A DNA stretch of 64,000 nt, taken from an uncultured Methanosarcinales archaeon (GTDB lineage Archaea > Nanobdellota > Nanobdellia > Woesearchaeales > GW2011-AR9). Under the pieces are notes generated by a model. The model did not search any database, was not told where the DNA came from, and was given only the letters and a program-made list of their open reading frames with translations. Numbering within the stretch: the first letter of the stretch is position 1; each line of letters begins with the position of its first letter. A program made the translations under genes and the position numbers. Location of the stretch: positions 34,079 to 98,078 of the forward strand of contig CAYJXA010000001.1 in assembly GCA_964373955.1 (NCBI GenBank), in the 5' to 3' direction. Below, piece by piece: positions 3,088 through 52,275 of the stretch.

Positions 3088-3170
3088 GGTATTCGCCTCC
3101 GAGTTGATTAATAGAAAGGCCACCTAAAAGCTATATAAAATCTTGTGACAAGAATATTCTAATTGGAATA

Positions 3171-9276: not shown

Positions 9277-11014
9277 GAGCATATTCTCGGCTAACTGCTT
9301 CTCTAAGCGCTGGAACTCCCTCCGGAGAGAGCTTCCCTGCATGCAGTTCAATAGTTTGGAGATCCAATCGCATTACGCGTTGAGCTTGCTCAGCCGTATA
9401 TCTACTGCCCGTCATATCAAAGACATATTTGAGATGAGCAAGGTGTTTATAGATAGCTGCGGCATGGTAACCAAGAATAAAGAAGCTGGTTGCATCAATT
9501 CTTGAATCAGCGTAGTGCTTAGGTAATTCTCTTTTTTCAAGGTAGTCTATAACCAACGCTTCCTGTTCCTCAAGAGTCAAGCCCAAAGAGTGATAGGAAT
9601 ATAATTTAGCTAAGTCTTCCTGTGGAGCACCAAACCCTACAAACTCATCTTCAAAGTCCGTTAAAATTATTTTTCCTTTTCGAGGATTGATTAGTACATT
9701 CCGTGGGCGAGGATCACCATGGATAAAAGAAGGAGCCAGCAGGGCCATTTGGGTAAGCAGAGCTGAGATAATGTACTGCTCATTGTACACGAAATTTAGG
9801 TCTCCATCCGCTCTAAATAGGGTATAGCTTTTCTGTTCATAATCGATGCCTTTTGGTTCACCATCGTCAGTATAAAACCGTGAGCGCAATACTTCTGCAT
9901 CTTTACGCATATCTCTAGTATCATCAAGAGAGAAAGAAAGTGATGAATCGGCATAGCGAAGATCTTGCTCTCCCTGTTCAGCCATATTTTGCAACACCCG
10001 TAACACACCAAGGTTAGGCAGACCTTGTAAATGCAACTGAAGTAGGGTGTCATTCATGCTTTGAAGGACGGCGCTTTTGTATTCAGGTGACTGTTGAATA
10101 AATTCATCCAACGTCTGCACTTCAGCAGCAAAGGGAGTCACTAGAGCATACTTGCAGCTAATCATCCTGTTTCCTTTTGGGAGGATGACTTCCGCAGCCA
10201 AATCAACACTTTGTGCCCTTCCTACTGATGCTAAAGGACTGGTTCCCCCGAGATAATGGTTTAAGCAAGCTTCAAAATCGCGTTGTTCTTTCTGCTCAGC
10301 GGAATAAAATTTGATAAAAGCATCCAAAGGCAATTTAGGAGATGTTGATGTAGAAAGATCACGCTGAAATAAGCGTACCCTCGCATTCACCTTTCTTGAA
10401 TCTTCATCAACTACCTCTTCTAGTATAATATGCCGGCAAAAATCACCTGTTCTTACCGAAGTAAGTAGTGGTTCTGCACGATCTCCCAACTGTTGCTTCA
10501 GCAAAAAGGGATTATCTAAGAGCTGTTGCATCAAGTCTGTATATTCAATTGCAGAGATATCTCGTTCCTCTTTTGTACGAGCACGTTTAAGAACATTTTT
10601 CCCATCAAGTTCGAGGAGAAGATTCTGCACTACCCCTTGAGAAGTTTCATCAAGTTCCAAAGGATCGATACCAAAAAATTCCTGAGCAGCTATTCTTACT
10701 TTATACTCATCGGGCAAAGCCCTCATCATCCCAATATATTCCCAGGTTCTTCGAGGATCGCTAAGGATGGAGGTAAATACTCTTACGGCTTCTTCATAAA
10801 TTCCTTGCTGGGGTTGATATAACCTTCCTGGAGTCAACCGGATCCAAGAAGCGTCGGGAGAAGAAGTTGGGCTAACCCAGGATGCTGGCGGAGGATCTGC
10901 TACTTTATCCATGGCCGCAAAGTATAACCGCATCCAGACGTGTTCTTGGGGAGTAAAATTACCAAAAAGCTTTTCTCGCAAGTGTTCCCGATTTGGATCA
11001 GAAGCGGAACTCAT
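9266..11014 (-). CDS. large protein with C-terminal protein-kinase-like (APH/choline-kinase fold) domain
   Basis: IHGDPRPRNVLI is an HGD catalytic-loop-like motif. ILTDFEDEF is DFG-like. The locus is GC-rich. Confidence 0.5.
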   Translation of the reverse strand: MSSASDPNREHLREKLFGNFTPQEHVWMRLYFAAMDKVADPPPASWVSPTSSPDASWIRLTPGRLYQPQQGIYEEAVRVFTSILSDPRRTWEYIGMMRALPDEYKVRIAAQEFFGIDPLELDETSQGVVQNLLLELDGKNVLKRARTKEERDISAIEYTDLMQQLLDNPFLLKQQLGDRAEPLLTSVRTGDFCRHIILEEVVDEDSRKVNARVRLFQRDLSTSTSPKLPLDAFIKFYSAEQKEQRDFEACLNHYLGGTSPLASVGRAQSVDLAAEVILPKGNRMISCKYALVTPFAAEVQTLDEFIQQSPEYKSAVLQSMNDTLLQLHLQGLPNLGVLRVLQNMAEQGEQDLRYADSSLSFSLDDTRDMRKDAEVLRSRFYTDDGEPKGIDYEQKSYTLFRADGDLNFVYNEQYIISALLTQMALLAPSFIHGDPRPRNVLINPRKGKIILTDFEDEFVGFGAPQEDLAKLYSYHSLGLTLEEQEALVIDYLEKRELPKHYADSRIDATSFFILGYHAAAIYKHLAHLKYVFDMTGSRYTAEQAQRVMRLDLQTIELHAGKLSPEGVPALREAVSREYALTL

Positions 11015-18770: not shown

Positions 18771-19826
18771 CTATTCTCCCTGAGGCCGTAACCGGGCTCT
18801 TCGTAGTTCTCCCCTTAGGAATTTCTCCCGGTCATCATGCATGGTTTTGTTCCATGCAACATACAAATTCCACCACAGCAATATGTGCCTTTTCTTTATA
18901 CCTAACAGAATACAGCTCCGTTCATAGTGCTGAAGAAAATCCTCATCATTTTCCAATCTTATTGCTGCGATAGCCTGATGGAGAGTCGATGAAGGAAGGT
19001 TCTTAATCTCCGCGTTTTGACGAAAGAGGGAATTTATCTCCGAAATTGGAACTGCCTGGCCGCTCTTTAGATGTAAGCTGGGTTCACCCTGCTGGTGATA
19101 ATATGCTAGAGCAATGACAAATGCCATCAAGAATCCCATCGCATATGCTTCTTCTTGAAAATATTTACGGTATACCTCCCATAAAGCGGGTCTGTCCAAG
19201 TCAAAACTGTACACCAATCGCTGTAAATCTTTTCGGTATTTCGCAAGGGCTTTGCTGGACAGCTGGACTGTTTCACTTTCCCGCCGTCGAACTAACTCGG
19301 CAAACCCTTCCTGACGCAAAGTAAATAGTATCATTCGGAAACAATGCTTATTATCAATCATTTTTAATGCCCCGGCCTGTTTCAGTGCAGCAATAAAAGG
19401 GGATAGTTTTAGATAATCCACATAATGGCCGACTTCATGAGCCAGTGCCCCACGAAAAGCGGAATGATTTTCTCTGGTTATGCACTGAAGGCTAACGGCA
19501 ATGAAATCTCTTAGCGGGTAGGTAATAACGCACGTGAATTCATCGGAAAGATGGCCCTGAAAGTGAGGGTGATCTTCATTAACCAGAATTAAACTAAAAT
19601 TGATTGAATTGCTAAAATAAGACTCTAAAGATTGTATCATTTGGGCATAAGAATCCAAGAGACGTTTATAACTTTGAGCATGAGCTCCTTTAAACTGTGC
19701 AATTGAGACAGTAGTTTTTTTTAATTCTCCCGCAAGTATAGCTGCGTAAGTAGGACCGGGAACGGAATTATAGACACGAACGTCAAATTTCTTTCCCGCA
19801 CTGGAAAATGAAGTAGTAACGAGCAT
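18771..19826 (-). CDS. predicted zinc metalloprotease-like protein (HExxH)
   Basis: LAHEVGHYVDYL is a zincin motif; 351 aa. Confidence 0.45.
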   Translation of the reverse strand: MLVTTSFSSAGKKFDVRVYNSVPGPTYAAILAGELKKTTVSIAQFKGAHAQSYKRLLDSYAQMIQSLESYFSNSINFSLILVNEDHPHFQGHLSDEFTCVITYPLRDFIAVSLQCITRENHSAFRGALAHEVGHYVDYLKLSPFIAALKQAGALKMIDNKHCFRMILFTLRQEGFAELVRRRESETVQLSSKALAKYRKDLQRLVYSFDLDRPALWEVYRKYFQEEAYAMGFLMAFVIALAYYHQQGEPSLHLKSGQAVPISEINSLFRQNAEIKNLPSSTLHQAIAAIRLENDEDFLQHYERSCILLGIKKRHILLWWNLYVAWNKTMHDDREKFLRGELRRARLRPQGE

Positions 19827-19868: not shown

Positions 19869-20981
19869 TTACCCAAACATCCTTTCCAAGAACCCTTTGC
19901 TAGGTTTTTCCTCATGCAACTGCTTAATTAATTCAATCTGCTTCTTGCTTAACTTCTTAGGCACTTCAATCTTTACTTTCACCATTTGATCTCCCTCTTC
20001 TCCATGATGAACATCAGGAAGGCCCATTCCTCCCATTCTAAAAACTGTTTCCGAAGCTGTTCCCGCGGGAATTTTCAAAGTCGCTTTTCCGGTGATAGTG
20101 GGAACTTCAATTTCATCTCCCAGCACTGCCTGCGTAAATGAGATAGGAATCGTAAGGTGCAAATCATTTCCTTTACGTTCAAAGAATTTGTGCGGTTGAA
20201 GATGGATCACCACATATAAATCGCCGTTTGAACCGTTATTTTCTCCCACTTCTCCTTCGCCTGCTACACGCAACTGCATGCCCCCATCTATGCCGGCGGG
20301 AATTTTAACTTCAATCTTCTTCTTCCGTCGTTGTAACCCTTCACCGCCACATTCTTTACAAGAATCTTGAGGTAATTCACCTCTTCCATGGCAGTAAGGA
20401 CAGGGCCCAGTTTGCTGGAAAATGCCGAAGGGTGTGCGCTGCGTTTTTTTCATGTAGCCTGAACCATGGCAATGGTGGCAATTTTCAAAAGAAAGTGCTC
20501 CTTTCCCATGACAAGCAGTGCAACGTTCCAGCTTGTTGAGCTGAATCGTCTTCTCAGCTCCTTTGGCTGCTTCTTCAAGCGTTATCTCTAACTCGTATGC
20601 TAGGTCTGATCCCCTTCTCCCCCGAGAAGATTTCCTGCCTTCCCCTCCAAAAAGGTGATCAAAGACATCATCAAAGTTGCCAAAGGTTCCCGAACGGAAC
20701 TGGGACATGATGTCAGAATAATCAAATCCTTCAAAGCCCCCAGCTCCTCCTTGAAAAGAAGAACTGCCAAATTGATCGTACTGCTGCCGCTTTTTATCAT
20801 CTCCTAACACGGAAACAGCTTCATTAATTTCTTTGAACTTTTCTTCGTATTCCTTCTTCTTATCCTCTGGCGCCCGGTCGGGATGATAAACGAGCGCTAA
20901 TTTCTTGAAAGCTTTCTTTATTTCATCCTTGCTTGCGTTCTTGCTGATTCCCAGGATTTTATAGTAATCTTTGTCGGCCAT
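19869..20981 (-). CDS. dnaJ: chaperone DnaJ
   Basis: J domain YYKILGI...YHPDR; a Gly/Phe-rich region; four CxxCxGxG zinc-finger repeats. Confidence 0.95.
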   Translation of the reverse strand: MADKDYYKILGISKNASKDEIKKAFKKLALVYHPDRAPEDKKKEYEEKFKEINEAVSVLGDDKKRQQYDQFGSSSFQGGAGGFEGFDYSDIMSQFRSGTFGNFDDVFDHLFGGEGRKSSRGRRGSDLAYELEITLEEAAKGAEKTIQLNKLERCTACHGKGALSFENCHHCHGSGYMKKTQRTPFGIFQQTGPCPYCHGRGELPQDSCKECGGEGLQRRKKKIEVKIPAGIDGGMQLRVAGEGEVGENNGSNGDLYVVIHLQPHKFFERKGNDLHLTIPISFTQAVLGDEIEVPTITGKATLKIPAGTASETVFRMGGMGLPDVHHGEEGDQMVKVKIEVPKKLSKKQIELIKQLHEEKPSKGFLERMFG

Positions 20982-20985
20982 GTAG

Positions 20986-21612
20986 TTAGTTAAGATTTAT
21001 TTTTTCTCCTAATTCTTCTGCTGTAAAAAGGAGGTGATTAAATAGTTTGCGTTCATAATCATATTGTTCCTGTTGTACGTCTTCCCAATTAATGTTTCTT
21101 TTCCGGATCCAATGCCCGTAGCGTTCATAAATGTAGTTCATGCGCTGAGCTAAAGGAACGACTTTATTTCCCAAGACTCGCCAATCAACATAATGGATAA
21201 ATCTGGTTTCTTCACTTACTTCCGCTTTAGGGTTTCTAGTTAATCCATCTAATTCCAGGAATAAGTGCGCAAATTCAGGGAATTCTTCTTTGAGCAGCAG
21301 GTAGGTAACGTATGTTTCGGAATGTCCTTTATATTGTTCCCGTAGTTTCTGATGCATTTGAACTTCGTCGGGGGTTGGTTGGTAATTGTAAGGGGGATCA
21401 GTGAGCCGTTCCAAGACCACCGCTTTCATGAAGTCGTGCAAGAGCGAGAAAGGAGCAATAACTTCTACTTTAATTGGATATCCTTCTCGTTGCAATTCTC
21501 CTGCGAGAAAGATCGCTACTTTGTGAACAGTTTTGCAATGTTCTTTGACTGTGCCTGGAACTTTATACTGCTCGAAGAGTTCCTGGCAATGCTGAAGGGT
21601 GGGGAGATTCAT
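20986..21612 (-). CDS. HD-domain phosphohydrolase
   Basis: H...H...LLHDFMK arrangement typical of HD metal-binding residues. Confidence 0.55.
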   Translation of the reverse strand: MNLPTLQHCQELFEQYKVPGTVKEHCKTVHKVAIFLAGELQREGYPIKVEVIAPFSLLHDFMKAVVLERLTDPPYNYQPTPDEVQMHQKLREQYKGHSETYVTYLLLKEEFPEFAHLFLELDGLTRNPKAEVSEETRFIHYVDWRVLGNKVVPLAQRMNYIYERYGHWIRKRNINWEDVQQEQYDYERKLFNHLLFTAEELGEKINLN

Positions 21613-22250
21613 GACAATAATTCCCTCCTAGCCCTTTCAATACTCTTAGGAACCATTTCTATTAATACATCTCTCAGACGTTGATAAGCTGGAAAAAGTT
21701 CACAGAAAGCTATTGGAAGTTTATTCATGCCGGCATACACGGGTAATACTTCTATCAGGGGCGTAGACGCTGCATCTTGGTACAGTTCCCGAACTAAAAG
21801 TTCCGGTCTTTTGGCTACTGGCAAGATTAAATGGACATCCTCTCTAACTCGCGTCGGCTGAAAACAAGGTCCCGCTATTCTTAATCCAATTTCTTCCAGA
21901 GCTTGATTTCGAGATTGTTCTTCAAAACTAGCCAGAGCATAGAAGCAGCTATTAACAGAGTCTACTCCCGCATGGACACCGAACAAGGCAATTTCTCCTG
22001 CTAAATGAAGAAGTTCTGGAATGGAATGTGCATACACGCCATTTTCAAGAGCGGAAGCGACAAAAGCAGCTTTAGTTTCTGGGGTGGCTTTTACTGTTCC
22101 ATCTGGAAATAATCCACACCCACTAGAAGAAACAGTAATTCTATCGGCTAGGCCTTGCTTGCGGATATAATCACTCGCAATTGCTTCGGCCATAGGGCTC
22201 CGTCCATTATTGCCGTAACAGACATATTCTATGTTAATATGTTGATTCAT
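21609..22250 (-). CDS. LMW protein-tyrosine-phosphatase / ArsC-like protein (paralog 1)
   Basis: CYGNNGRSPMAEAIA is a CX5R(S) P-loop, as in LMW-PTP and ArsC. The likely start is the internal Met; its ATG overlaps the upstream stop codon. Confidence 0.65.
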   Translation of the reverse strand: MNQHINIEYVCYGNNGRSPMAEAIASDYIRKQGLADRITVSSSGCGLFPDGTVKATPETKAAFVASALENGVYAHSIPELLHLAGEIALFGVHAGVDSVNSCFYALASFEEQSRNQALEEIGLRIAGPCFQPTRVREDVHLILPVAKRPELLVRELYQDAASTPLIEVLPVYAGMNKLPIAFCELFPAYQRLRDVLIEMVPKSIERARRELLS

Positions 22251-23554
22251 GATAATTTTCTCACTACTCCTTTCTCCGCATCTACCTCGACTTCCTCCCC
22301 TTCCTGTAACACTTTCGTGGCAATTTTTGTGCCAATAACACAAGGCTTTTTCATCTCCCGGCAGACAATCGCTGCATGAGACGTAACTCCCCCCAAATCT
22401 GTAACTACTGCGCCTGCTAATTTCATCACCGGAACATAATCCGGGGTGGTTTCAGAAACAACCAAGATGTCTCCAGGGTTCATTCGGTGAAAATCGTGAA
22501 CAGACTTAAGCAGCTTTACTTTTCCTTTGGCTTTGCCCAGTGAAGCCGGCATGCCTTTGATATGGTCTATTCCCGTTACTTTTACAGCTATATTTTCTTT
22601 TTCTCCCGCTAGTTCGTTCCCCACAAAAATATGTTCCTCGCCATCAATTACGATAATGCCAAACCCCTTCATTCGTTCTCGCAAGGTAGTTTGAGCTTGG
22701 AATTGTTTGTCTCTGATTTCTGTAAGAGTATGCTGCACCATCTCCTCAAAAGTTAATCCTTGCTGGCGAGCAAGCGTCTCAAACCAAGGCCAGAAGTGGA
22801 AGGCAATTTTGTTCAGGCTTTCGATGAAGTGAAAACGGAGAAATGCTAATCCCTCAGCCACTTTTAATTCCGGCCAGTGTAAATCTAGAGGTTTTATGTC
22901 CGCGTGCAAAGGAGGTTCAAAAGTGCGTAGTTCTTCTCTTACTTTTTCTTTGGAGAGCGGCGTTCCCCACATGACATTAATGGTGGTCCAGCTGTATTTT
23001 TGTAGGAAGGTTGAAATATCCTGTTCGGTGAGCTTGCCTTGTTGATGGAGCGAAGCAAGTTTGGCGAATTGCGCGTCTCGTTCCATGAATTCAAGCCCTT
23101 CATGTTTTATCTGTCCCAAAACAGGGTACAATTCAATACCTTCCTGGGCGCATTTTTCACGTAAAGCTTTGGTAATCCCTTCATCAATTTGGTGAATTAT
23201 TAACCAGTAACACATCATGAGGCGTAAGTTCTCTAAGAAGAGATGGAATGAACCTAGGGAAGAATAATCATATCGTGCGGTAAGAAATTCTTGCGCTGAT
23301 TTTTTTGCGTCGGAAATAAAGGTAAATAAGTATTCAAAATCTTTCTCTTTCATCTTTGCATAAAAAAATTGTTCTAAGGCATCCCAGCCTTCTTTATCCA
23401 TGAATACTTCTCCATCAACGACTTTATATCCTTCTTTTATCGCCGGGAGATTATGTTTTTTGAAGACATGCTGAGAGTAGTAATGAGCGAAGAGGGAGCT
23501 GGTTAAAGGGACTGATTCCCAATGTCCTAGATATCGCCAGGTTGTTTCTTTCAT
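22247..23554 (-). CDS. uncharacterized helical domain fused to C-terminal PEP-utilizing-enzyme mobile (phosphohistidine swivel) domain, paralog A
   Basis: The C-terminus GDILVVSETTPDYVPVMKLAGAVVTDLGGVTSHAAIVCREMKKPCVIG matches the swivel domain. The N-terminal part has no ATP-grasp (PPDK_N) motifs. Confidence 0.7.
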   Translation of the reverse strand: MKETTWRYLGHWESVPLTSSLFAHYYSQHVFKKHNLPAIKEGYKVVDGEVFMDKEGWDALEQFFYAKMKEKDFEYLFTFISDAKKSAQEFLTARYDYSSLGSFHLFLENLRLMMCYWLIIHQIDEGITKALREKCAQEGIELYPVLGQIKHEGLEFMERDAQFAKLASLHQQGKLTEQDISTFLQKYSWTTINVMWGTPLSKEKVREELRTFEPPLHADIKPLDLHWPELKVAEGLAFLRFHFIESLNKIAFHFWPWFETLARQQGLTFEEMVQHTLTEIRDKQFQAQTTLRERMKGFGIIVIDGEEHIFVGNELAGEKENIAVKVTGIDHIKGMPASLGKAKGKVKLLKSVHDFHRMNPGDILVVSETTPDYVPVMKLAGAVVTDLGGVTSHAAIVCREMKKPCVIGTKIATKVLQEGEEVEVDAEKGVVRKLS

Positions 23555-24636
23555 GGTATTTTTCGTACTGTTCCTTTTTCTGCGTCTACTTCGACAAGGT
23601 CGCCGTCTTTGAATATCTTCGTTCCATAATTAGTTCCTACAATACAGGGAATGCCTAGTTCTCTACTTACGACAGCCGCATGCGACATCAATCCACCCTG
23701 ATCGGCAACAATAGCCTTTGCTCTACTGCATAACGCCATCAATTCCGGACTCGTGGTTTGTGCTATCAAAATTGCACCATCTTCCATCCTGTCAAAAACT
23801 TTTTGAACCAGAGACATATCATTAAACATTGGCGCAATAACTACTTTCCCGGTTACTTTTCCCTTATTAGCGATCGTTCCGGTAACCGAATCCTGCATTT
23901 TCGTTGGTAGTAAAGACTGTACCAGTATTCCAGCTTCTCTTTCTGGAATTTCAGAAATCTCTCCCTCCTGAGACAAGAGAGCAATGCATTCTTTTCTCTT
24001 CAGTATATTTTCCATATTTGGCTTTTCACCATCAAACAAATCCAAGATTTCTTGGTACGAGAGATATCGAGCGCTATCATCATCATGGAAATATTTTCGC
24101 GAGAAATAACACACGATATTAGGGATAACTCCATTGAGGAAAAAGAACTGACTCATTACTTTTCTCCCTTCCACTTTTGCTTCATAAAGATCATGTAAAT
24201 GAGGTGTAATGACTGGATTTTCCTCTTTCTTTTGGAAGGCAAGATTATGATGAGGAAATTCCGTGAACCCATACCAATACCAGTAGTTTTCAAGGAATTG
24301 AACTACGGAAACGAATTCTTCTTTAGTCATTTTTTCTGGAATCTGGCTATATTTGGAGAGAATATGCTTTTGTGCATGATCAATATGATGTCGCAATGCT
24401 GTTGATACCTTTTGATACTCCTGCGGATTGCTGAAGATTCGTACACCTTCCTGGAGGCATTTTTCTTCTCCTTCTCTATCAATAAAAGTACTCCAAAGCC
24501 CATTAGTGTATAAAATCACGATCTTATTTCTAGCGAGAGATGTTCTCCCGAAGATTTCACAATTTAGAAAAGAAGCAGTGATGATTCCATGGAACAATGG
24601 TTTAAAGTCTTGAGGATTTAGATTCATTTTAATCAT
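23551..24636 (-). CDS. helical domain plus PEP-utilizing swivel domain protein, paralog B
   Basis: C-terminus IVADQGGLMSHAAVVSRELGIPCIVGTNYG; overlaps the neighbouring genes by 4 nt. Confidence 0.7.
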   Translation of the reverse strand: MIKMNLNPQDFKPLFHGIITASFLNCEIFGRTSLARNKIVILYTNGLWSTFIDREGEEKCLQEGVRIFSNPQEYQKVSTALRHHIDHAQKHILSKYSQIPEKMTKEEFVSVVQFLENYWYWYGFTEFPHHNLAFQKKEENPVITPHLHDLYEAKVEGRKVMSQFFFLNGVIPNIVCYFSRKYFHDDDSARYLSYQEILDLFDGEKPNMENILKRKECIALLSQEGEISEIPEREAGILVQSLLPTKMQDSVTGTIANKGKVTGKVVIAPMFNDMSLVQKVFDRMEDGAILIAQTTSPELMALCSRAKAIVADQGGLMSHAAVVSRELGIPCIVGTNYGTKIFKDGDLVEVDAEKGTVRKIP

Positions 24637-26045
24637 AAAGAGGAAGTGTTAGATAACTTACGTACGGTGCCTGTTTCAGCGTCCACTTCCACTATATCTC
24701 CATCTTTAAATGCGGTCGTAGCAATATGCGTTCCCACAAGGCAAGGGATTTTAAATTCTCTGCTGATAATCGCAGCATGTGATAACATTCCGCCTTCTTC
24801 TGTCACGATCGCTCCAGCCCTGCTGGCAATATCAACGATATTCGGTTGAGTCATTTGGGTTATAAGAATATCTCCTTTCTTAAACGTCATGCGCAGTTCA
24901 TTATTTTGTTGAATGTTATTTGACTGTAAAATTCTAGCTATTCCTCTACATTTCCCGGAATTAGCGACCATCCCCTTCACTTCATCATTTTCTTTTATTT
25001 CATAAAGATTTCCTAATTCTTTCTTAGCTACATCCTCGGCTTCATTACCGGAGATTAGAATCACTTTTCCCGCTTTTAAAAGTCCCACTACGCATTTCTT
25101 TCGGTTGTTTTTTTCTTCCGAGGACAGAAATTCATGTTTCAACAATAGCTTTTCTATCTCTGGTGAGAAGTAATATTTAGTAAGATCAGATATATTTTCT
25201 CCCGTCCTGCGGGCAATTTCCGCAAATAAAGGAATAGTATAAAATTCAGTGCCTGCCCAGCAAGACTTAACTTCCATTCTGGACATCGCCAATTGCTGTG
25301 CGCGATGCACCAAAATCTGTAATTCCGGCTTGGAGGAAAGGATTGCTTCCTGCTTTTGCTGCAATTCCTCTTTTTCCCGACGTATATCCTTCCATTTTTG
25401 GTGCACAGAATCATGAGCATATCGTTGAGAAAGCGTGCCTAGAACATCATTCATGGTGAAATGGCAGGCCACCAGCCAAGGGTATTTTTCCACGTGGGTT
25501 ATCATTCTTGATTCGGAATAGGGTTGTGGTAGTATTTCCTGCCATTCCAGCTGTTCTTGGTTTAATACATCCACGCCGACAGGAGTAAGTAACACGGAAA
25601 CGTCTTTATCCGTACAATGTTTTCGTATGGCTTCGAGCAAATAATGCATTCCCTCTACTTGAGTTGGCCGGAAATAACTAATGGTTAATTGCCATTGCTT
25701 CCTAGCCTCAAGAACAAGATCCATTAATTCCTGATCAGAAATGTTTTGCCAAGGAATATTCTTTAATGACGTAAAAAAAGCGCGATGTTCTGTGCAGCGC
25801 TGCTTCAAGTCCTGTAAGAATCTAGCAGAAAGATTCTCATCGAGGAAAATTTTTCCTCTTTCTTGGTCTTCCTGCAGATCCTCGCTGGAGTGAAAGGTAG
25901 AAATGCGATTATCTCGAGAGATTTGGATGATATTTTTAGCTTGGTTCCAAGGAAAAAAATGGGGAAATTCCAGAAAACAAAATAGATTCAGCTCAATAGT
26001 CCAATGGGCTTGATAATTTCCCCATAAATATTGATAGTGTGGCAT
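24633..26045 (-). CDS. helical domain plus PEP-utilizing swivel domain protein, paralog C
   Basis: C-terminus GDILITQMTQPNIVDIASRAGAIVTEEGGMLSHAAIISREFKIPCLVG. Confidence 0.7.
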   Translation of the reverse strand: MPHYQYLWGNYQAHWTIELNLFCFLEFPHFFPWNQAKNIIQISRDNRISTFHSSEDLQEDQERGKIFLDENLSARFLQDLKQRCTEHRAFFTSLKNIPWQNISDQELMDLVLEARKQWQLTISYFRPTQVEGMHYLLEAIRKHCTDKDVSVLLTPVGVDVLNQEQLEWQEILPQPYSESRMITHVEKYPWLVACHFTMNDVLGTLSQRYAHDSVHQKWKDIRREKEELQQKQEAILSSKPELQILVHRAQQLAMSRMEVKSCWAGTEFYTIPLFAEIARRTGENISDLTKYYFSPEIEKLLLKHEFLSSEEKNNRKKCVVGLLKAGKVILISGNEAEDVAKKELGNLYEIKENDEVKGMVANSGKCRGIARILQSNNIQQNNELRMTFKKGDILITQMTQPNIVDIASRAGAIVTEEGGMLSHAAIISREFKIPCLVGTHIATTAFKDGDIVEVDAETGTVRKLSNTSSL

Positions 26046-26051
26046 ACGTCC

Positions 26052-26711
26052 TTAACCTAGTAATTCTCTGACAGCTCTATCTACCGTTCTTGGAACTGCA
26101 ATCCGCAAATGATCTCGTGCAGCTCGATATTCCGGAAGCAATCTGCAGAAAGGATTTGGTACATCTCCTTCCATCCCAGCGTATTCATTGAGAAGGGCAA
26201 TAGTTGGAGTATACCCAGAACCAGCGTATATTTGTCGAACTTGGTCTAGATTAGCTTTTGCCATAGCTAAGACGACATGTTGATCATCACTTCCATGAAG
26301 CATTGTAGGCCGATGATATTCGCGAGTAGCAACCAAACCTGCTTCCATCAATACTTGATCTCGAAATATTGCCTCTGCGCGAACCACATAATCAAATAAT
26401 TCTTGCACTAACTCTGGATCAGTTCCATGGCCCTGACCCTCCGCTAAGACTGCGGCAGCCTGATCTCTTCTCCACGATTCTTGATACACTCCGTTTGCAG
26501 CCGCCATTCGTACTATTTGCAGTTGTGCTTGAGTTTTCTCAGCTCCTTCTCTGAGGAACATTGGATGTAATCCGCTTCCACTCGAACGAACTCGCACTCT
26601 GTCCGCTAAGCCTTGTCGATGAACGTAGTCAGTAGCGATTGCCTCTGCTTGAGGACTTCTGCCATTATTCCCGGTACATACATATTCTAACGTCAAAAAA
26701 TTTTCAGTCAT
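26052..26711 (-). CDS. LMW-PTP / ArsC-like protein (paralog 2)
   Basis: CTGNNGRSPQAEAIA is a CX5R P-loop. It is clearly paralogous to the ORF at 21609-22250. Confidence 0.65.
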   Translation of the reverse strand: MTENFLTLEYVCTGNNGRSPQAEAIATDYVHRQGLADRVRVRSSGSGLHPMFLREGAEKTQAQLQIVRMAAANGVYQESWRRDQAAAVLAEGQGHGTDPELVQELFDYVVRAEAIFRDQVLMEAGLVATREYHRPTMLHGSDDQHVVLAMAKANLDQVRQIYAGSGYTPTIALLNEYAGMEGDVPNPFCRLLPEYRAARDHLRIAVPRTVDRAVRELLG

Positions 26712-26713
26712 TT

Positions 26714-27505
26714 TTATTTTCCTCCTTGTTGCATTCTTTCCATCATCCTCTGCACTGCCTGATCATGCAAATAACCTGCTTGCGTTTCCGTTAATCTTTC
26801 CCTTCCCATCATCGCTGCGCTAACTGCAAGCATAAAGTTATTCATTGACTCTTGCATTTGCATATTGCGAACATGATTTGGAAGGGCCATTTCCGTGCAT
26901 GCTTTCTCTCCACATACCAATATCCCCGGGCTAAACCCTATAAATGTGGGCTCAGGATAGGTGAAATGTTTTCTCTCAACATCACCGCCAAGCTTATACG
27001 GAGGAACTTTCCCGCAAAAACCACACAATTCACCACGCTCATTATCATCTCCATCCAGTATAAACCTTTGGTTAACGATTACTAATCCCCCCCGTTGCCC
27101 TGGCGATAATCGAGCAATATCTTCCAGGGGAATTGTGCCAACTGTTCCTTTAGTAGTTTCATACTTGACACGACACCCATCTATTGGGGAGCCTTCTCCT
27201 CCAATCTCCGGAAGGTGATAGATTGGTCGAGGGGTAACTCCGTGCCTTTCTCTGTACTCTCGCAAAGATTGATTAAATTCTGGAAGCGCTCTACGAAGTT
27301 GAGCGATGATATATTCATCAGCCCATCTCTGTAGCCTATGTAGACCCCGCCCAGAGTAGCGTCTGGTGTCCCAACGATTATTCAAGTTGAGGACTCTTTT
27401 TCGCTTATCCAACACCATTTTATATTCAGGACTACACCAGAGAGCTGCATTTCGAGCCATCATCGCATCCAAAGTAGCATTCCCGGTAGGTTCGTCTTTA
27501 AACAT
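26714..27505 (-). CDS. hypothetical protein (first gene of cluster 1)
   Basis: 263 aa in the same orientation and tightly packed with the cluster; includes CGFCGK and CGEKAC Cys pairs. Confidence 0.45.
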   Translation of the reverse strand: MFKDEPTGNATLDAMMARNAALWCSPEYKMVLDKRKRVLNLNNRWDTRRYSGRGLHRLQRWADEYIIAQLRRALPEFNQSLREYRERHGVTPRPIYHLPEIGGEGSPIDGCRVKYETTKGTVGTIPLEDIARLSPGQRGGLVIVNQRFILDGDDNERGELCGFCGKVPPYKLGGDVERKHFTYPEPTFIGFSPGILVCGEKACTEMALPNHVRNMQMQESMNNFMLAVSAAMMGRERLTETQAGYLHDQAVQRMMERMQQGGK

Positions 27506-27566: not shown

Positions 27567-29405
27567 CTACTTCTCCTTAAACTCCGCATCGACAACATTG
27601 TCGTCGTCAGAGGAAGGTTTGCTATCATGCGCACCTTTCTCAGCACCCTGCTTAGCAGCAGCTTCTTGATACATCTTGGCGCCAATCTCCTGCACAATCT
27701 TATTCAACTCTTCGATCTTCTTGGTAATCGTGGCAGGTTCGCCTTCCTTCCGGGCATCTTCCACTGCTTTAATCTTCTCTTCAATTTTTGTTTTCAGGGC
27801 GGCATCAACCTTATCGCCAAACTCCTCGAGTACCTTACGGGTTTGGTATACGACAGCATCAGCATTATTTTCTGCTTCAATCTTGTCCCGCAACTTCTTA
27901 TCATCAGCTTCATGCTCCTGTGCTTCTTTCTTCATGCGCTCGACTTCATCTTTACTCAAAGCACTGGAACCAGTAATTTTAATCCGTTGTTCTTTTGCGG
28001 TTCCTAAATCCTTAGCAGACACGTGCATGATTCCATTGGCGTCAATATCAAAGGTAACTTCAATCTGCGGCACTCCCCGAGGAGCTGGTGGAATTCCCAC
28101 TAAGTCAAATTGCCCCAGTACTTTATTATCTGCAAACATGGGGCGTTCCCCTTGCGCTACTCGAATGGTAACCGCAGGCTGGTTATCCGCTGCCGTTGAA
28201 AAGATCTGCGATTTCTTGGTAGGAATGGTCGTATTTCGTTCAATTAATTTAGTAAACACTCCTCCCAGAGTTTCAATGCCCAAACTCAGAGGAGTAACAT
28301 CCAAAAGCAATACATCCTTAACATCCCCGGCTAATACTCCTGCTTGAATGGCTGCTCCTACCGCAACCGCTTCGTCAGGATTGACGGATTTATCTCCTTC
28401 TTTTCCAGTCAATCGTTTGACTAATTCCTGCACCGCAGGGATTCTGGTGGATCCACCTACAAAAATAACCTTGTTGATTTTATCCAATGATAATCCAGCA
28501 TCTTTCAGGGCATTCTTGGTAGGCACTTCCAATCGTTTTAAGATAGAGGCAATTAATTCTTCAAATTTAGCTCTACTCAACTCTTCCTTAAGATGTTTTG
28601 GCCCGGTGCTATCAGCGGTAATGAAAGGAAGGCTAATTTCTACTTTCATTTTACTGGAAAGTTCAATTTTTGCTTTCTCGGCAGCTTCTTTTAAACGCTG
28701 CACAGCAGTAGCATCATTCCGTAAATTTATGCCGGTGGATTTCTTGAAATTATCCATCAAGAAATTCATGATAATTTCGTCAACATCATCCCCACCAAGA
28801 TAATTATCACCATTGGTGGCTTTCACTTCAAAGACTCCCCCGCCTAATTCCAGGATAGAAACGTCAAAGGTTCCCCCGCCAAAATCAAAAACTAAAATGG
28901 TGTGATCTTTCTCTTGCTTATCTAATCCGTACGCAAGTGCAGCAGCAGTGGGTTCATTAATAATGCGCAAGACATTCAATCCGGCAATTTCTCCCGCATT
29001 TTTCGTTGCTTGCCGTTGTGCATCGTTAAAATATGCCGGAACAGTAATAACCGCATTCTTCACCGGCTGGCCAAGATAGGCTTCGGCATCCCGTTTTAAT
29101 TTCTGTAGAATCATCGCCGATATCTGCTCGGGAGTGTATTCCTTGCGATCGATCTCCACTTTCTCATTTGATCCCATTTTCCGTTTAATGGAACGTACCG
29201 TATGGGAAGGATCAACAATCGCCTGATTTCGGGCAATCTGCCCCACAATTATTTCTTCATCTTTAATATGCACCACGCTGGGGGTGGTTCTGGTTCCTTC
29301 TGCATTGCTAATAATTGCCGGTTTTCCTGCTTCCATTACCGCTACCGCTGAAAAAGTCGTTCCTAAGTCTATTCCAATAGTTGCTCCTGATGTTTTAGTT
29401 GCCAT
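27567..29405 (-). CDS. dnaK: chaperone DnaK (Hsp70)
   Basis: [22 protein letters not shown] and the overall 612-aa organisation are classic Hsp70. Confidence 0.97.
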
Positions 29406-29967
29406 TTTTGTTTTGTTCCTCCATATGAGTTTGATTTTGTTGGCCGGCGCTTATTTTTACTCGAGCATGCCGGAGCACTTGACCATGTAAAGTAAATCCT
29501 TTCTGGAACACTTCTAAAATAGTGTTCGCTGGCTGGGATGATTCTACTTTCAGCAAGGCTTCATGACGATAAGGATCAAAACTGGTTTTTTCTGTGGTGA
29601 TGGGTTGAACCCCTAACCGTTGCAAGACGTCAAAGAGTTGAGAATAAATTAATTCTACTCCTTTCACGAATTCTTCGGGATGAGCGCGGGCATTCTTTAA
29701 GGCTAATTCAAAATTATCAATGAGCGGCAAGAGTTGGATGATAACATCTTTCGCTGCTACTTGTTTTAGGTCTTCAATCCTCTTCTCAGTCTGCTTGCGA
29801 TAATTTTCAAAGTTGGCTTGGGTGCGCTGGAGTAATTCGGTGAGTTCTTGAACTTGATTTTCGATAATAGGTGTTACATTTATCTCCTCACGTTGAGAGA
29901 TGGGATGAGCCCCGTCTGAATCGTTTTTGTCTGCTACGATGTTATCGTGTATCTTTTCTTTAGCCAT
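29395..29967 (-). CDS. grpE: nucleotide exchange factor GrpE
   Basis: Coiled-coil N-terminus and GrpE-like C-terminus. It overlaps the dnaK start. The start is taken at the internal Met (MAKEK). Confidence 0.8.
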
Positions 29968-30076
29968 ACTTTTCACCTTATTTGTTGAGTTTAAGTCAAC
30001 TAGAACTATCCAAAATAAGCCTTCTATATAAATCTTGTGGAAAAAGTTTAAAAGAAGAGCCGTATTAAGGGAAACA

Positions 30077-30472
30077 ATGGCGTATCGTGTTACACTTGTC
30101 CGGATTCGAAAAACCCAGGGAGGAAACCTCAATCAGGAATTACAATGGCTAGGAAATTCATTGGGATTATTTAATCTGAGGGATAGGGATAGCAGTTGTT
30201 TCCGAGTATTTATTACCTTAGTCCGAGCAGCAAACCAGGATAAGCCGCTTACCTCCGATGAAATTGCGGAGCGATTGCACTTAAGCCGAGGAACTGTTGT
30301 GCATCACCTGCATCGCTTGATGGAATCAGGAATAGTCGTGAAAGAAAAAGAGGGATATTTATTGAGAGAGAGTTCCATTGAGCGATTGATTAAAGATATT
30401 CACCAAGATATGGAAATGATGTTTTCTGAACTATCGGATGCGGCAAGGCAGATTGACGAGAGCTTGAGATAG
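30077..30472 (+). CDS. winged-helix transcriptional regulator divergent from grpE-dnaK (candidate heat-shock regulator)
   Basis: LTSDEIAERLHLSRGTVVHHLHRLMESGIV is an HTH. Its position is divergent from the chaperone operon. Confidence 0.45.
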   Translation: MAYRVTLVRIRKTQGGNLNQELQWLGNSLGLFNLRDRDSSCFRVFITLVRAANQDKPLTSDEIAERLHLSRGTVVHHLHRLMESGIVVKEKEGYLLRESSIERLIKDIHQDMEMMFSELSDAARQIDESLR

Positions 30473-33276: not shown

Positions 33277-33280
33277 AAAG

Positions 33281-33368
33281 CGCCCCGGACCAGATTTGAA
33301 CTGGTGACCTGATGGTTAACAGCCATCCGCTTTGGTTGATTATTCTCTAACCGCTGAGCCACCGGGGC
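33281..33368 (-). tRNA. tRNA-Asn (anticodon GTT) with a roughly 15-nt non-canonical insertion (putative intron) between the D-arm and the anticodon stem
   Basis: Hand-folded. Acceptor stem GCCCCGG/CCGGGGC. D-arm GCTC-AGCGGTTA-GAG(C). Anticodon arm GATGG-CTGTTAA-CCATC. T-arm ACCAG-TTCAAAT-CTGGT. Discriminator G. The extra AATAATCAACCAAAG interrupts the 3' side of the D-stem. Confidence 0.8.
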
Positions 33369-52272: not shown

Positions 52273-52275
52273 ACT

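What the first reader, a model, noticed from the sequence alone, without database searches (positions are those of the whole stretch)
21609..27505. Array of three paralogous 'helical domain + PEP-utilizing swivel (phosphohistidine) domain' proteins flanked by two LMW-PTP/ArsC-like paralogs, inserted between dnaK and dnaJ
Three consecutive translationally coupled genes (435, 361 and 470 aa) end in a well-conserved PEP-utilizing-enzyme mobile domain (GDILV...T.P......A.AIVT..GG..SHAAI.SRE..IPC.VG). Their 250-370-aa N-terminal regions lack the PPDK_N ATP-grasp hallmarks, with no GGK P-loop and no RSS..ED..SFAG motif. They also lack the PEP-binding TIM barrel of PEP synthase, PPDK or Enzyme I. This architecture is closest to the substrate-binding-plus-His-domain part of rifampin-phosphotransferase-like enzymes. 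It suggests a family of phosphotransfer enzymes acting on unknown substrates. Two paralogous CX5R-type phosphatase/arsenate-reductase-fold proteins bracket the array, and a 263-aa Cys-pair protein leads it. The block separates grpE-dnaK from dnaJ, which are normally contiguous, so it is probably an accessory insertion.
Basis: partly seen in the sequence, partly recalled or inferred. Interest (0 to 1): 0.85.

Follow-up and report, generated by a model that had tools for sequence, protein, structure and literature searches.

The report
Split dikinase modules inside Hsp70 operon
Three related genes in the heat-shock (Hsp70) operon of a small DPANN-type archaeon encode the substrate-binding, phosphate-carrying half of a split ATP-driven kinase with an unknown target, flanked by two unusual phosphatase-like proteins; the enzyme type is known, but its repeated placement in the chaperone operon has not been described.

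Summary
Three translationally coupled genes (470, 361 and 435 aa) end in a PF00391 phosphohistidine swivel domain with the catalytic His intact. They have no PPDK_N ATP-grasp domain and no PEP-binding barrel. Their helical N-domains resemble only the rifampin-binding domain of rifampin phosphotransferase, and only by fold.

The same N-domain occurs in other organisms fused to PPDK_N, with one, two or three helical+swivel modules, or encoded next to a stand-alone PPDK_N gene. The window proteins are therefore best read as acceptor subunits of a split RPH/PpsA/HpeH-type dikinase. No ATP-grasp partner lies in the 64 kb.

The bracketing "LMW-PTP" proteins belong to a small archaeal family closest to the arginine phosphatase YwlE, with the catalytic Asp replaced by Asn. 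They almost always sit beside swivel genes.

The "accessory insertion" reading is only half right. In this clade an HD-type hydrolase always separates dnaK from dnaJ (31 of 31 evaluable loci). Swivel genes, with or without the YwlE-like gene, occupy the dnaK–HD slot in about a quarter of loci and are twice fused to the HD protein. The same slot also collects mobile genes.

Substrate and link to Hsp70 remain unknown. I rate it a new variant of a known kind.

The parts
30035..30472 (+). Divergently transcribed winged-helix regulator (ArsR/MarR-like HTH) upstream of grpE
   Evidence: Pfam HTH_5, HTH_20 and MarR_2. An ortholog is found in the same divergent position in nearly all related loci, at 54-74% identity.
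29395..30132 (-). grpE. The true start is probably the internal ATG, 'MAKEKIHD...'
   Evidence: ORF. 49-69% identical to the GrpE of related loci.
27567..29405 (-). dnaK (Hsp70), 612 aa
   Evidence: ORF. 76-90% identical to the DnaK of related loci.
26714..27505 (-). 263-aa protein with a four-Cys motif (CGFCG...CGEKAC). Function unknown; a rare accessory gene.
   Evidence: No Pfam, NCBIfam or PADLOC match. Only itself was found among 5.8 billion proteins. One ortholog sits in the same position in L013, 33% identical with all four Cys conserved.
26052..26711 (-). YwlE-like LMWPc variant 1 (219 aa). It has a CTGNNGRS P-loop. Asn186 stands where LMW-PTPs have the catalytic Asp, and Cys189 follows it.
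   Evidence: Pfam LMWPc 52.8 bits. Family alignment A5. The closest solved homolog is YwlE, E 3.6e-17, with 'GDVPNPFC' aligned to 'GDVLDPFG'. The gene lies immediately upstream of a swivel gene in the related loci.
24633..26045 (-). Swivel protein 'sw470': helical N-domain (about 350 aa) plus PF00391 His domain (His423)
   Evidence: PF00391 E 3.7e-23. Conserved N-domain residues W190, R256, E296, R315. Orthologs at 49-63% identity lie directly after the LMW variant in L013, L014, L016 and L017.
23551..24636 (-). Swivel protein 'sw361': shorter helical N-domain (about 250 aa) plus PF00391 His domain (His319)
   Evidence: PF00391 E 1.1e-23. AF2 model pLDDT 71.5, with a poor N-terminus; the Foldseek top hit is again RPH, E 4e-11. 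Fused to the sw470 ortholog in L014 as an 838-aa protein.
22247..23554 (-). Swivel protein 'sw435': helical N-domain (about 330 aa) plus PF00391 His domain (His393, with Thr391 at the -2 position)
   Evidence: PF00391 E 1e-25. AF2 pLDDT 94.6. RPH is the best structural match. Conserved W189, R240, E279, R294.
21609..22250 (-). YwlE-like LMWPc variant 2 (213 aa from the ATG at 22250). It has a CYGNNGRS P-loop, and its acid-loop position reads 'PIAFC'.
   Evidence: Pfam LMWPc 39.6 bits. 42% identical to variant 1. Aligned in A5.
20986..21612 (-). HD-type metal-dependent phosphohydrolase (208 aa). It is a core gene of this clade's Hsp70 operon and is fused to swivel proteins elsewhere.
   Evidence: H25, H59-D60 and D143 are invariant in 20 orthologs. 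Profile hits in the PDB: 1xx7 at E 1.5e-8 and the YfbR 5'-deoxynucleotidase at E 8.6e-5. 30% identical (E 1e-27) to the C-terminus of the swivel-HD fusion P0034. Present before dnaJ in 31 of 31 evaluable loci.
19869..20981 (-). dnaJ (370 aa), the last chaperone gene of the operon
   Evidence: Pfam DnaJ, DnaJ_CXXCXGXG and DnaJ_C.

Best explanation
The three genes encode acceptor subunits of a split, RPH/PpsA/HpeH-type dikinase.

Proposed mechanism:
1. An ATP-grasp (PPDK_N) protein encoded elsewhere in the genome pyrophosphorylates or phosphorylates the conserved histidine of each C-terminal swivel domain.
2. The swivel domain then swings onto its own helical N-domain.
3. There a conserved Trp/Arg/Glu/Arg set forms the second active site, and the phosphate passes to a bound acceptor. 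The overall reaction is ATP + X + H2O -> AMP + X-P + Pi.

The three paralogs differ in the N-domain, so they probably take different acceptors or different sites on one acceptor.

The two YwlE-like proteins, which have a Cys-X5-Arg loop but Asn in place of the catalytic Asp, and the HD hydrolase act on the phosphorylated product or on the phospho-enzyme. This gives a phosphorylation/dephosphorylation cycle.

The whole set is co-transcribed with grpE-dnaK-dnaJ and is therefore expressed with the heat-shock response.

Shown here: the domain content, the intact catalytic residues, the fold relationship, the fusions and adjacency to PPDK_N in relatives, and the recurrent linkage to the LMW variant, the HD gene and the dnaK operon.

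Inferred: loading in trans, the direction of transfer, the identity of the acceptor, and any functional tie to Hsp70.
For: (1) PF00391 is present with the invariant GGxxSH...RE motif in all three proteins.

(3) NCBIfam alignments of the 361-aa and 435-aa proteins to RPH-, PRK06241- and RedH-type models extend 70-100 residues upstream of the swivel domain.

(4) Domain-fusion evidence. A profile of the N-domain alone finds 1595 cluster representatives. Among them are:
- PPDK_N + helical + swivel proteins of about 750 aa (P0171, P0190, P0198, P0256)
- PPDK_N with two modules (P0196) and with three (P0213)
- a permuted helical + swivel + PPDK_N protein (P0149)
- the 1145-aa L008 protein and the 1246-aa L024 protein

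(5) Gene-adjacency evidence.
- A stand-alone PPDK_N gene is translationally coupled inside an array of five swivel paralogs in L025.
- One lies 3.7 kb downstream of an array of four paralogs in the bacterial locus L011.
- L025 and L027 come from one MAG. It holds both a PPDK_N-containing array and a separate LMW-like + sw361 pair without PPDK_N.

(6) Precedent: HpeHI, CreHI and PpsAB are two-component dikinases built exactly this way. HpeH alone catalyses phosphotransfer between substrates (PMC12167813).

(7) The LMW variant lies within 2 kb of a swivel gene in 11 of 12 evaluable loci. The HD protein is fused to swivel proteins twice.
Against: No PPDK_N is detectable in the 64-kb window (tblastn) or within 10 kb of any dnaK-type locus. 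The donor for these particular proteins is therefore unobserved.

The similarity of the N-domain to RPH is by fold only and is partial, about 140 residues beyond the swivel domain. A profile of the N-domain finds nothing in PDB sequences.

All NCBIfam family scores are far below their cut-offs, so these are not members of any curated dikinase family.

sw361 lacks one of the conserved Arg residues in the alignment, and the N-terminal part of its model is of low confidence.

Two or three hydrolase-like genes in the same operon would undo a simple kinase product.

The dnaK-HD slot also accumulates mobile genes, so co-transcription with Hsp70 may be incidental.
Confidence: 0.55

Rival explanations
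1. A protein-directed N-phosphorylation system working with Hsp70, analogous to McsA/McsB/YwlE with ClpC in Firmicutes. The swivel proteins would phosphorylate client or regulator proteins bound on the helical domain, much as Enzyme I phosphorylates HPr. The YwlE-like proteins would remove or read the mark.
For: The closest solved relative of the LMW variant is the protein arginine phosphatase YwlE: E 3.6e-17 over two stretches, against 4e-11 or weaker and P-loop only for phosphotyrosine phosphatases. The P-loop has a polar residue (Asn) where YwlE has its specificity-determining Thr and pTyr enzymes have Ile; this comes from the sequences plus my own knowledge of Fuhrmann et al. 2013. The genes sit in a heat-shock operon with a four-Cys protein in front, reminiscent of McsA. 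McsB/McsA/YwlE act as a chaperone-linked system (PMC8370763; bioRxiv 10.1101/2022.09.15.508104). Enzyme I's N-terminal domain, helical subdomain plus swivel, gives weaker Foldseek hits (E about 1e-3). A PPDK-derived regulatory histidine kinase, VadK, exists (PMC13400623).
Against: Every characterised relative with this N-domain fold acts on small molecules. The catalytic Asp needed by YwlE is Asn here. The four-Cys protein is present in only two known loci. No substrate is indicated. The family is also widespread in Patescibacteria outside chaperone operons.
Confidence: 0.15
2. A His-to-Cys phosphorelay of the PTS kind. The LMW variant is not a hydrolase but a phosphocysteine carrier. It would accept phosphate from the swivel His and pass it on. 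Asp-to-Asn stabilises the Cys-phosphate intermediate.
For: The invariant Cys-X5-Arg-Ser loop combined with near-invariant loss of the Asp, which acts as general acid and base, argues for a conserved function that is not ordinary hydrolysis. Gene adjacency to swivel genes is tight and often coupled. From established knowledge: PTS IIB(cellobiose) has an LMW-PTP-like fold and carries phosphate on Cys, and Asp-to-Asn mutants of LMW-PTPs are very slow in hydrolysing the intermediate.
Against: There is no experimental precedent for an LMWPc-family phosphocarrier. A conserved Cys189 next to the Asn could instead indicate a redox or ArsC-like mechanism. No downstream acceptor is evident. Many swivel arrays lack the LMW gene.
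Confidence: 0.1
3. The enzymology is as in the best explanation, but the position in the Hsp70 operon means nothing functionally. The dnaK-HD junction is simply a tolerated insertion site where accessory cargo lands, and the swivel/LMW block is such cargo. On this reading the first reader's 'accessory insertion' is correct. This rival overlaps the best explanation and disputes only the link to Hsp70.
For: Only 8 of 33 related operons carry swivel genes in the slot, and the paralog types differ. The slot holds AbiEi/AbiEii and YhcG-like nuclease genes in L013, L014, L016, L018, L038 and L093. In L018 the swivel gene is truncated by such an insert. The closest homologs of the 435-aa protein (43-46% identical) sit elsewhere, next to NucS and SHMT genes.
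Against: Swivel proteins are fused to the operon's core HD protein in two lineages (P0034/L009 and L063) and translationally coupled to it in L067. The block is retained with tight coupling across lineages whose LMW proteins are only 51-59% identical. In L020 the LMW + sw361 pair still lies 1.5 kb from the operon.
Confidence: 0.35
4. Conventional but truncated or degenerate PEP synthase or PPDK genes, that is, pseudogene fragments or mis-called ORFs.
For: The best NCBIfam hits by E-value are PEP synthase models.
Against: Those hits cover only the swivel segment, at 86-117 bits against cut-offs of 598-740. There is no PPDK_N and no PEP barrel. The N-domain is a well-folded, conserved family of its own with 1595 cluster representatives. 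The ORFs are intact and translationally coupled.
Confidence: 0.02

Closest known systems
Substrate-binding plus swivel subunits of two-component small-molecule dikinases: HpeH, CreH, and PpsA of phenylphosphate synthase
   Same: One polypeptide carries a helical acceptor-binding domain followed by a C-terminal PF00391 His domain. The ATP-grasp domain is on a separate polypeptide. Both are related by fold to RPH (PMC12167813).
   Different: The N-domain is much smaller: 250-350 aa, whereas HpeH aligns to RPH over 473 residues. Scores against the PRK08296-type models are 70-100 bits against cut-offs of 578-730. No partner gene lies in the same operon. Three to four paralogs occur in tandem. The genomic context is a chaperone operon with phosphatase-like genes, not aromatic catabolism.
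Rifampin phosphotransferase (RPH-Lm; PDB 5fbu, 5hv1)
   Same: The only solved structure that aligns beyond the swivel domain. The helical domain then His domain order is the same. Relatives of the window proteins have the full RPH order, ATP-grasp, helical, His.
   Different: No ATP-grasp in cis. Only about 140 residues of the rifampin-binding domain superpose. The NF041857 score is 50-58 bits against a cut-off of 999. The N-domain has no sequence-level similarity to it.
YwlE, the protein arginine phosphatase of Bacillus and Geobacillus (PDB 1zgg, 4kk3, 4pic)
   Same: Best sequence match of the LMW variant family. The P-loop VCTGNxxRSPMAEA and the 'GDVxxPF' loop align. YwlE belongs to a heat-shock protein quality-control circuit.
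   Different: The catalytic Asp118 is Asn. The P-loop is N-G instead of T-C. There is an insert of about 70 aa. A conserved Cys follows the Asn. The family is restricted to about 27 archaeal proteins.
YfbR/OxsA-type HD-domain nucleotide phosphohydrolases (PDB 2paq, 1xx7, 2cqz)
   Same: The H...HD...D metal site is conserved. These are the best PDB profile hits of the operon's HD protein.
   Different: Low similarity: E 1.5e-8 to 1e-4 over the N-terminal half only. The C-terminal half is unmatched. Activity is untested. The fixed position between dnaK and dnaJ is not a known feature of that family.
N-terminal domain of PTS Enzyme I (a swivel His domain with an inserted helical HPr-binding subdomain)
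   Same: A swivel His domain paired with a helical partner-binding domain. The phosphate goes to a second molecule bound on the helical part.
   Different: Only weak structural hits (Foldseek E about 1e-3). The domain order differs. There is no PEP-binding barrel and no HPr.

Membership tests
PEP-utilising enzyme mobile (swivel) domain, PF00391 | Profile match above the Pfam gathering score | tested here: met
   81.4, 83.0 and 89.6 bits against a cut-off of 23.1, full-length domain matches.
PEP-utilising enzyme mobile (swivel) domain, PF00391 | Catalytic phospho-accepting His in the GGxx(S/C)H motif | tested here: met
   His423, His319 and His393 are invariant in 61 aligned sequences.
PEP synthase / pyruvate phosphate dikinase | N-terminal PPDK_N ATP-grasp domain (PF01326) in the same polypeptide | tested here: not met
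   No PF01326 match at E<0.1. PDB hits are confined to the swivel domain.
PEP synthase / pyruvate phosphate dikinase | C-terminal PEP/pyruvate-binding TIM barrel (PF02896) | tested here: not met
   No match. The proteins end about 5 residues after the swivel domain.
PEP synthase / pyruvate phosphate dikinase | Score above the curated NCBIfam cut-off (PRK06464, TIGR01418) | tested here: not met
   78-117 bits against cut-offs of 598 and 740.
Rifampin phosphotransferase (RPH) | Three domains in one chain: ATP-grasp, rifampin-binding, His swivel | tested here: not met
   The ATP-grasp is absent. The other two domains are present by fold.
Rifampin phosphotransferase (RPH) | Score above the NF041857 / NF000283 cut-offs | tested here: not met
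   50-58 bits against 999, and 36-37 bits against 1700.
Rifampin phosphotransferase (RPH) | Helical substrate-binding domain with the RPH fold | tested here: inconclusive
Two-component small-molecule dikinases (PpsAB, CreHI, HpeHI), acceptor subunit | Acceptor-binding helical domain plus C-terminal swivel His domain on one polypeptide, without an ATP-grasp | tested here: met
   The architecture of HpeH is as described in PMC12167813.
Two-component small-molecule dikinases (PpsAB, CreHI, HpeHI), acceptor subunit | Partner ATP-grasp (PPDK_N-type) subunit encoded with it | tested here: not met
   None in the 64-kb window. It is met in relatives: L025, L011, and fused in L008, L024 and P0171 among others. 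The rest of the genome could not be read.
Two-component small-molecule dikinases (PpsAB, CreHI, HpeHI), acceptor subunit | Sequence membership (PRK08296-type NCBIfam models) | tested here: not met
   47-100 bits against cut-offs of 578-730, covering the swivel region only.
Two-component small-molecule dikinases (PpsAB, CreHI, HpeHI), acceptor subunit | ATP-dependent phosphorylation of a hydroxyl-bearing small molecule via phospho-His | not testable with these tools
   Needs biochemistry.
Low-molecular-weight phosphatase family (LMWPc; YwlE subgroup) | Pfam LMWPc match and the Cys-X5-Arg-Ser/Thr P-loop | tested here: met
   52.8 and 39.6 bits against 23.2. VCTGNNGRSP is invariant in 26 sequences.
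Low-molecular-weight phosphatase family (LMWPc; YwlE subgroup) | General acid/base Asp in the D-P-(F/Y) loop | tested here: not met
   Asn186 in variant 1 is near-invariant in the family, and the position reads 'IAF' in variant 2. It aligns to Asp118 of YwlE.
Thioredoxin-coupled arsenate reductase (ArsC, LMWPc fold) | Cys triad (Cys10/Cys82/Cys89 type) and a score above the PRK13530 cut-off | tested here: not met
   13.5 and 14.8 bits against 215. Only Cys12 and Cys189 are conserved.
HD-domain metal-dependent phosphohydrolases | H...HD...D metal-binding residues | tested here: met
   H25, H59, D60 and D143 are invariant in 20 orthologs. The Pfam HD model does not reach E<0.1 for the window protein but annotates the L013 ortholog. 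HDIG matches 17 of 20 orthologs at E<=0.01.
PTS Enzyme I | PEP-binding C-terminal domain and an HPr partner | tested here: not met
   No PF02896. TIGR01417 scores 34-36 bits against 342.

The most novel reading that the evidence does not exclude
In a clade of DPANN archaea the Hsp70 machine is coupled to a phosphohistidine-based modification system. ATP-grasp-loaded swivel proteins would phosphorylate chaperone clients, co-chaperones or a nucleotide-like effector. An Asp-less YwlE-type protein would read, carry or remove the phosphate, and the operon's obligatory HD hydrolase would reset it. This would be an archaeal counterpart of the McsB/YwlE/ClpC arginine-phosphorylation circuit, built from dikinase parts.
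Probability: 0.12. Interest if true: 0.85.

Novelty: new variant of a known kind. Interest (0 to 1): 0.6.

Why it matters
Swivel proteins with this helical N-domain form a sizeable family. A profile of the N-domain alone finds about 1600 clusters at 50% identity. The members that carry source names are mostly from Patescibacteria and DPANN archaea, and they are annotated only as 'PEP-utilizing enzyme'. These organisms have minimal metabolism and depend on hosts.

Recognising the proteins as acceptor halves of split ATP-to-AMP dikinases gives a concrete, testable biochemical role. One possibility is high-driving-force phosphorylation to trap or activate scavenged molecules.

Two further observations appear to be undescribed. 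An HD hydrolase is always wedged between dnaK and dnaJ in this clade. Dikinase modules and an Asp-less YwlE-like protein are repeatedly recruited beside it, and the modules are sometimes fused to the HD protein. If the linkage is functional, it points to phosphorylation-based control or assistance of Hsp70 in archaea. If it is not, it documents an insertion hot spot inside a core stress operon.

Tried and rejected
- **Ordinary truncated PEP synthase/PPDK.** Rejected: no PPDK_N and no PEP barrel, and the family scores are far below their cut-offs.
- **ATP-grasp partner in the window.** tblastn with a stand-alone PPDK_N (L011) and with the fused 1145-aa protein (L008) found none. It did reveal three extra swivel genes.
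- **Sequence-level link of the N-domain to any solved structure.** None found.
- **Are the 337-, 347- and 369-aa proteins of the second swivel locus free-standing helical domains?** hhalign probability is below 1%. A single sequence against a profile is a weak test.
- **The 263-aa protein as a missing ATP-binding partner.** It has no family match, only itself in the large database and one ortholog, and it is absent from most swivel-bearing operons. It cannot be the general donor.
- **Known anti-phage defence system.** No PADLOC hits. PHROGs matches only the swivel domain, in a family labelled 'kinase'.
- **ArsC-type arsenate reductase for the LMW proteins.** Rejected on score and on the Cys pattern.
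- **Collection scan with an N-domain-only alignment.** It failed because no stretch was conserved enough. The LMW-variant and GrpE alignments were used instead.
- **AFDB fold search.** Unavailable.
- **Literature.** Three searches found nothing on this family in Patescibacteria or DPANN, or on extra genes in archaeal dnaK operons. Castelle et al. 2021 note only that DPANN carry DnaK-DnaJ-GrpE.
- **Lookup of the window's own contig.** It failed, so the organism is inferred only from the names that sources give to homologs: Woesearchaeota and Nanoarchaeota.

Full report
**What is there**

On the minus strand the window carries one tightly packed operon. In transcription order it reads:
- grpE (30132-29395)
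- dnaK (29405-27567)
- a 263-aa four-Cys protein (27505-26714)
- an LMWPc-like 219-aa protein (26711-26052)
- three PF00391 proteins of 470, 361 and 435 aa (26045-24633, 24636-23551, 23554-22247)
- a second LMWPc-like protein (22250-21609, 213 aa from the ATG)
- an HD-like 208-aa protein (21612-20986)
- dnaJ (20981-19869)

Four successive junctions from the 470-aa gene to the HD gene are 4-nt overlaps, and the remaining junctions are gaps of 2-6 nt. The only larger gap is 61 nt, after dnaK. A winged-helix regulator is transcribed divergently (30035-30472). G+C content shows no break across the block.

The organism is an archaeon of the Woesearchaeota/Nanoarchaeota type. This is judged from the names that sources give to the closest homologs.

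**Check of the observation**

PF00391 matches the C-termini of all three proteins at 81-90 bits against a cut-off of 23.1. The phospho-accepting His and the surrounding GGxxSHAA...RE...PC motif are intact. Nothing matches PPDK_N or the PEP barrel.

NCBIfam hits to PEP synthase, PPDK, RPH, RedH/PigC and PRK08296 cover the swivel region, and for two proteins 70-100 residues before it. They lie far below every curated cut-off. PDB sequence hits cover residues 331-433 only.

The two bracketing proteins match LMWPc and are 42% identical to each other. It omits the HD gene. It also omits a fourth full-length paralog (55319-56815, 498 aa) and two stand-alone swivel domains (50377-50679 and 52276-52632) elsewhere in the window. 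That makes six PF00391 domains in 64 kb.

**The N-terminal domain**

A 57-sequence alignment gave a confident AlphaFold model of the 435-aa protein: pLDDT 94.6, pTM 0.91. It shows a short beta element, a bundle of long helices, and then the swivel domain.

The 361-aa protein gave a poorer model (pLDDT 71.5, with the N-terminal 140 residues low), but RPH is again the best hit at E 4e-11. A profile of the N-domain alone finds no PDB sequence. The relationship is by fold, not by detectable sequence.

Within the N-domain a Trp, two Arg and a Glu are conserved across the family. In the 435-aa protein they are W189, R240, E279 and R294. All four are present in three of the four window paralogs; sw361 shows Phe at the first Arg position in the alignment. 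I infer that these residues form the second phosphotransfer site. That inference is not shown here.

**Split dikinase: the main argument**

The N-domain profile finds 1595 cluster representatives among 1.84 billion, 766 of them at E<=1e-10. Most are stand-alone proteins of 420-480 aa. The members that carry source names are mostly from Patescibacteria and DPANN archaea.

Some members are fused to PPDK_N:
- ATP-grasp + helical + swivel, about 750 aa: P0171, P0190, P0198, P0256
- ATP-grasp with two modules: P0196
- ATP-grasp with three modules: P0213
- a permuted helical + swivel + ATP-grasp form: P0149

The same holds for the 1145-aa protein of L008 and the 1246-aa protein of L024.

Elsewhere a stand-alone PPDK_N gene sits inside or beside arrays of four or five swivel paralogs. 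In L025 it is translationally coupled within the array, and in L011 it lies 3.7 kb downstream of the array. One MAG (L025 and L027) has both a PPDK_N-containing array and a separate swivel pair without PPDK_N.

Many homologs of 670-840 aa are fusions of two modules.

This is the logic of the two-component dikinases PpsAB, CreHI and HpeHI. There an ATP-grasp subunit loads the His of a substrate-binding-plus-swivel subunit, and the latter alone can pass phosphate between substrates (PMC12167813).

The window proteins are best read as such acceptor subunits. No PPDK_N lies in the window or within 10 kb of any dnaK-type locus. The donor is therefore inferred to be encoded elsewhere.

**The LMWPc-like proteins**

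Only 27 relatives exist among 5.8 billion proteins. Those that carry source names are from Woesearchaeota or Nanoarchaeota MAGs. The family keeps an invariant VCTGNNGRSP loop and has an insert of about 70 aa. Where LMW phosphatases have D-P-F/Y, it reads '(D/E)V-x-N-P-F-C'.

Its profile matches the arginine phosphatase YwlE best: E 3.6e-17 over two stretches. Phosphotyrosine enzymes match only in the P-loop, at E 4e-11 or weaker. The alignment places Asn186 on the catalytic Asp118 of YwlE. ArsC models score 13-15 bits against a cut-off of 215.

In 11 of 12 evaluable loci the gene lies within 2 kb of a swivel gene, usually immediately upstream of a sw470- or sw361-type gene.

Loss of the general acid/base in a conserved family with an otherwise intact active site has three possible readings:
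- a substrate with a good leaving group, such as phosphohistidine
- a long-lived Cys-phosphate, making the protein a carrier
- a binding role without catalysis

I cannot tell which applies.

**The HD protein and the operon context**

The 208-aa protein keeps H...HD...D in all 20 orthologs examined. Its profile hits the Pyrococcus 'oxetanocin-like' HD proteins (1xx7, E 1.5e-8) and the YfbR 5'-deoxynucleotidase (E 8.6e-5). The NCBIfam matches are the HD part of DVU_1551, TIGR00295 and HDIG.

It is 30% identical (E 1e-27) to the C-terminus of P0034. P0034 is a 615-aa swivel-HD fusion that sits exactly between dnaK and dnaJ in another archaeon. A second fusion, 682 aa, occurs in L063. In L067 a swivel gene is translationally coupled to the HD gene and to dnaJ.

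To remove selection bias I sampled loci by GrpE and mapped them with the window proteins.
- 33 loci extend at least 700 nt beyond a complete dnaK.
- 31 of these show the HD gene. The other two end inside a swivel block.
- None has dnaK directly followed by dnaJ.
- 8 carry swivel genes between dnaK and HD, with or without the LMW variant. Some of these may be duplicates of one organism.

Loci found through the LMW variant show the same layout (L013, L014, L016, L017, L018). In L020 the operon is dnaK-HD-dnaJ, with the LMW + sw361 pair 1.5 kb away.

The ancestral operon is therefore HTH | grpE-dnaK-HD-dnaJ. The swivel/LMW block is a variable but recurrent occupant of the dnaK-HD junction.

The same junction holds YhcG/DUF1016-type nuclease genes and AbiEi/AbiEii pairs in six loci. 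In L018 such an insert has truncated the swivel gene. This is the strongest argument that the position may be opportunistic. The fusions to the HD protein are the strongest argument that it is not.

**The 263-aa protein**

It has no family match. It has one ortholog, in L013 in the same position, 33% identical with the four Cys conserved. It is absent from the other loci. It is a lineage-specific accessory whose function is not addressed here.

**Mechanism and confidence**

I put 0.55 on the split-dikinase reading. That reading is loading in trans by an ATP-grasp protein, swivelling of the phospho-His onto the helical domain, and transfer to an unknown acceptor, with the YwlE-like and HD proteins acting on the product or on the phospho-enzyme.

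The acceptor is unknown. Known relatives phosphorylate hydroxyl groups of small, mostly aromatic molecules. The HD relatives act on nucleotides. The YwlE relationship and the operon suggest proteins.

Rival readings are a protein-directed system working with Hsp70 (0.15), a His-to-Cys relay (0.10), and an operon position that is incidental (0.35). The last overlaps the main reading on enzymology. 'Truncated PEP synthase' is refuted.

**Novelty**

The enzyme class is known, so this is not a new category. Four things appear to be new, as far as three literature searches show (for the one DPANN paper that discusses DnaK):
- the compact N-domain family
- its expansion into multi-copy arrays
- the Asp-less YwlE-like partner
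- the obligatory HD gene inside the archaeal Hsp70 operon, with repeated recruitment of dikinase modules next to it

Noticed in passing
window 49271-53654 (+): A second swivel locus. In order it holds a 369-aa unknown, a 100-aa stand-alone PF00391 domain (50377-50679, GGITCH), a 337-aa unknown, a 212-aa weak HAD-like hydrolase, a 118-aa stand-alone PF00391 domain (52276-52632, 91 bits), a 347-aa unknown, and then an ABC ATPase. TrmB-family regulators flank it (48024-49154 and 54435-55178). The unknowns show no hhalign similarity to the helical N-domain.
   Followed up: partly
window 55319-56815 (+): A fourth full-length family member (498 aa; PF00391 81 bits; W223, R295, E334, R354, His454). 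It lies next to a TrmB regulator and a probable proteasome alpha subunit gene.
   Followed up: partly
L013, L014, L016, L018, L038, L093 (dnaK-HD junction): The junction between dnaK and the HD gene repeatedly carries YhcG/DUF1016-like nuclease genes or AbiEi/AbiEii toxin-antitoxin pairs. In L018 the insert truncates the swivel gene to 214 aa. This is an insertion hot spot inside a core stress operon.
   Followed up: yes
L004 9593-10213; L008 9442-10089: A histidine-phosphatase-superfamily gene (His_Phos_1) lies directly beside single swivel genes in a Patescibacteria genome and a Diapherotrites genome. With the LMWPc, HD and HAD examples, that makes four different phosphatase-type families found next to swivel genes.
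   Followed up: no
L011 3510-14055: A bacterial locus (Logan assembly SRR25508717; bacterial-type ribosomal protein genes nearby). It holds four tandem swivel paralogs, then two NAPRTase-like genes, a methyltransferase and a stand-alone PPDK_N gene. This may be a hint about the acceptor, such as nicotinate-related salvage, or it may be coincidence.
   Followed up: no
window 18771-19826 (-): A 351-aa ORF just downstream of dnaJ has no family match. It contains an 'AHEVGH' (HExxH) motif that suggests a zinc metalloprotease. No homolog was found in the related loci.
   Followed up: no
window 9266-11014 (-): A 582-aa protein with a weak APH-type phosphotransferase (kinase) domain (PF01636, E 1e-8). 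It sits among several large ORFs (390, 574 and 543 aa) that have no family match.
   Followed up: no
window 33280-33368 (-): ARAGORN calls an 89-nt tRNA-Leu (anticodon AAG). The Rfam scan of the whole window reported no match at gathering score, not even to the tRNA model.
   Followed up: no
window 1912-3123 (-): S-adenosylmethionine synthetase of the three-domain MetK type (PF00438, PF02772, PF02773). From my own knowledge, most archaea use a different MAT family, so this may be another bacterial-type gene in this archaeon, like the DnaK system.
   Followed up: no
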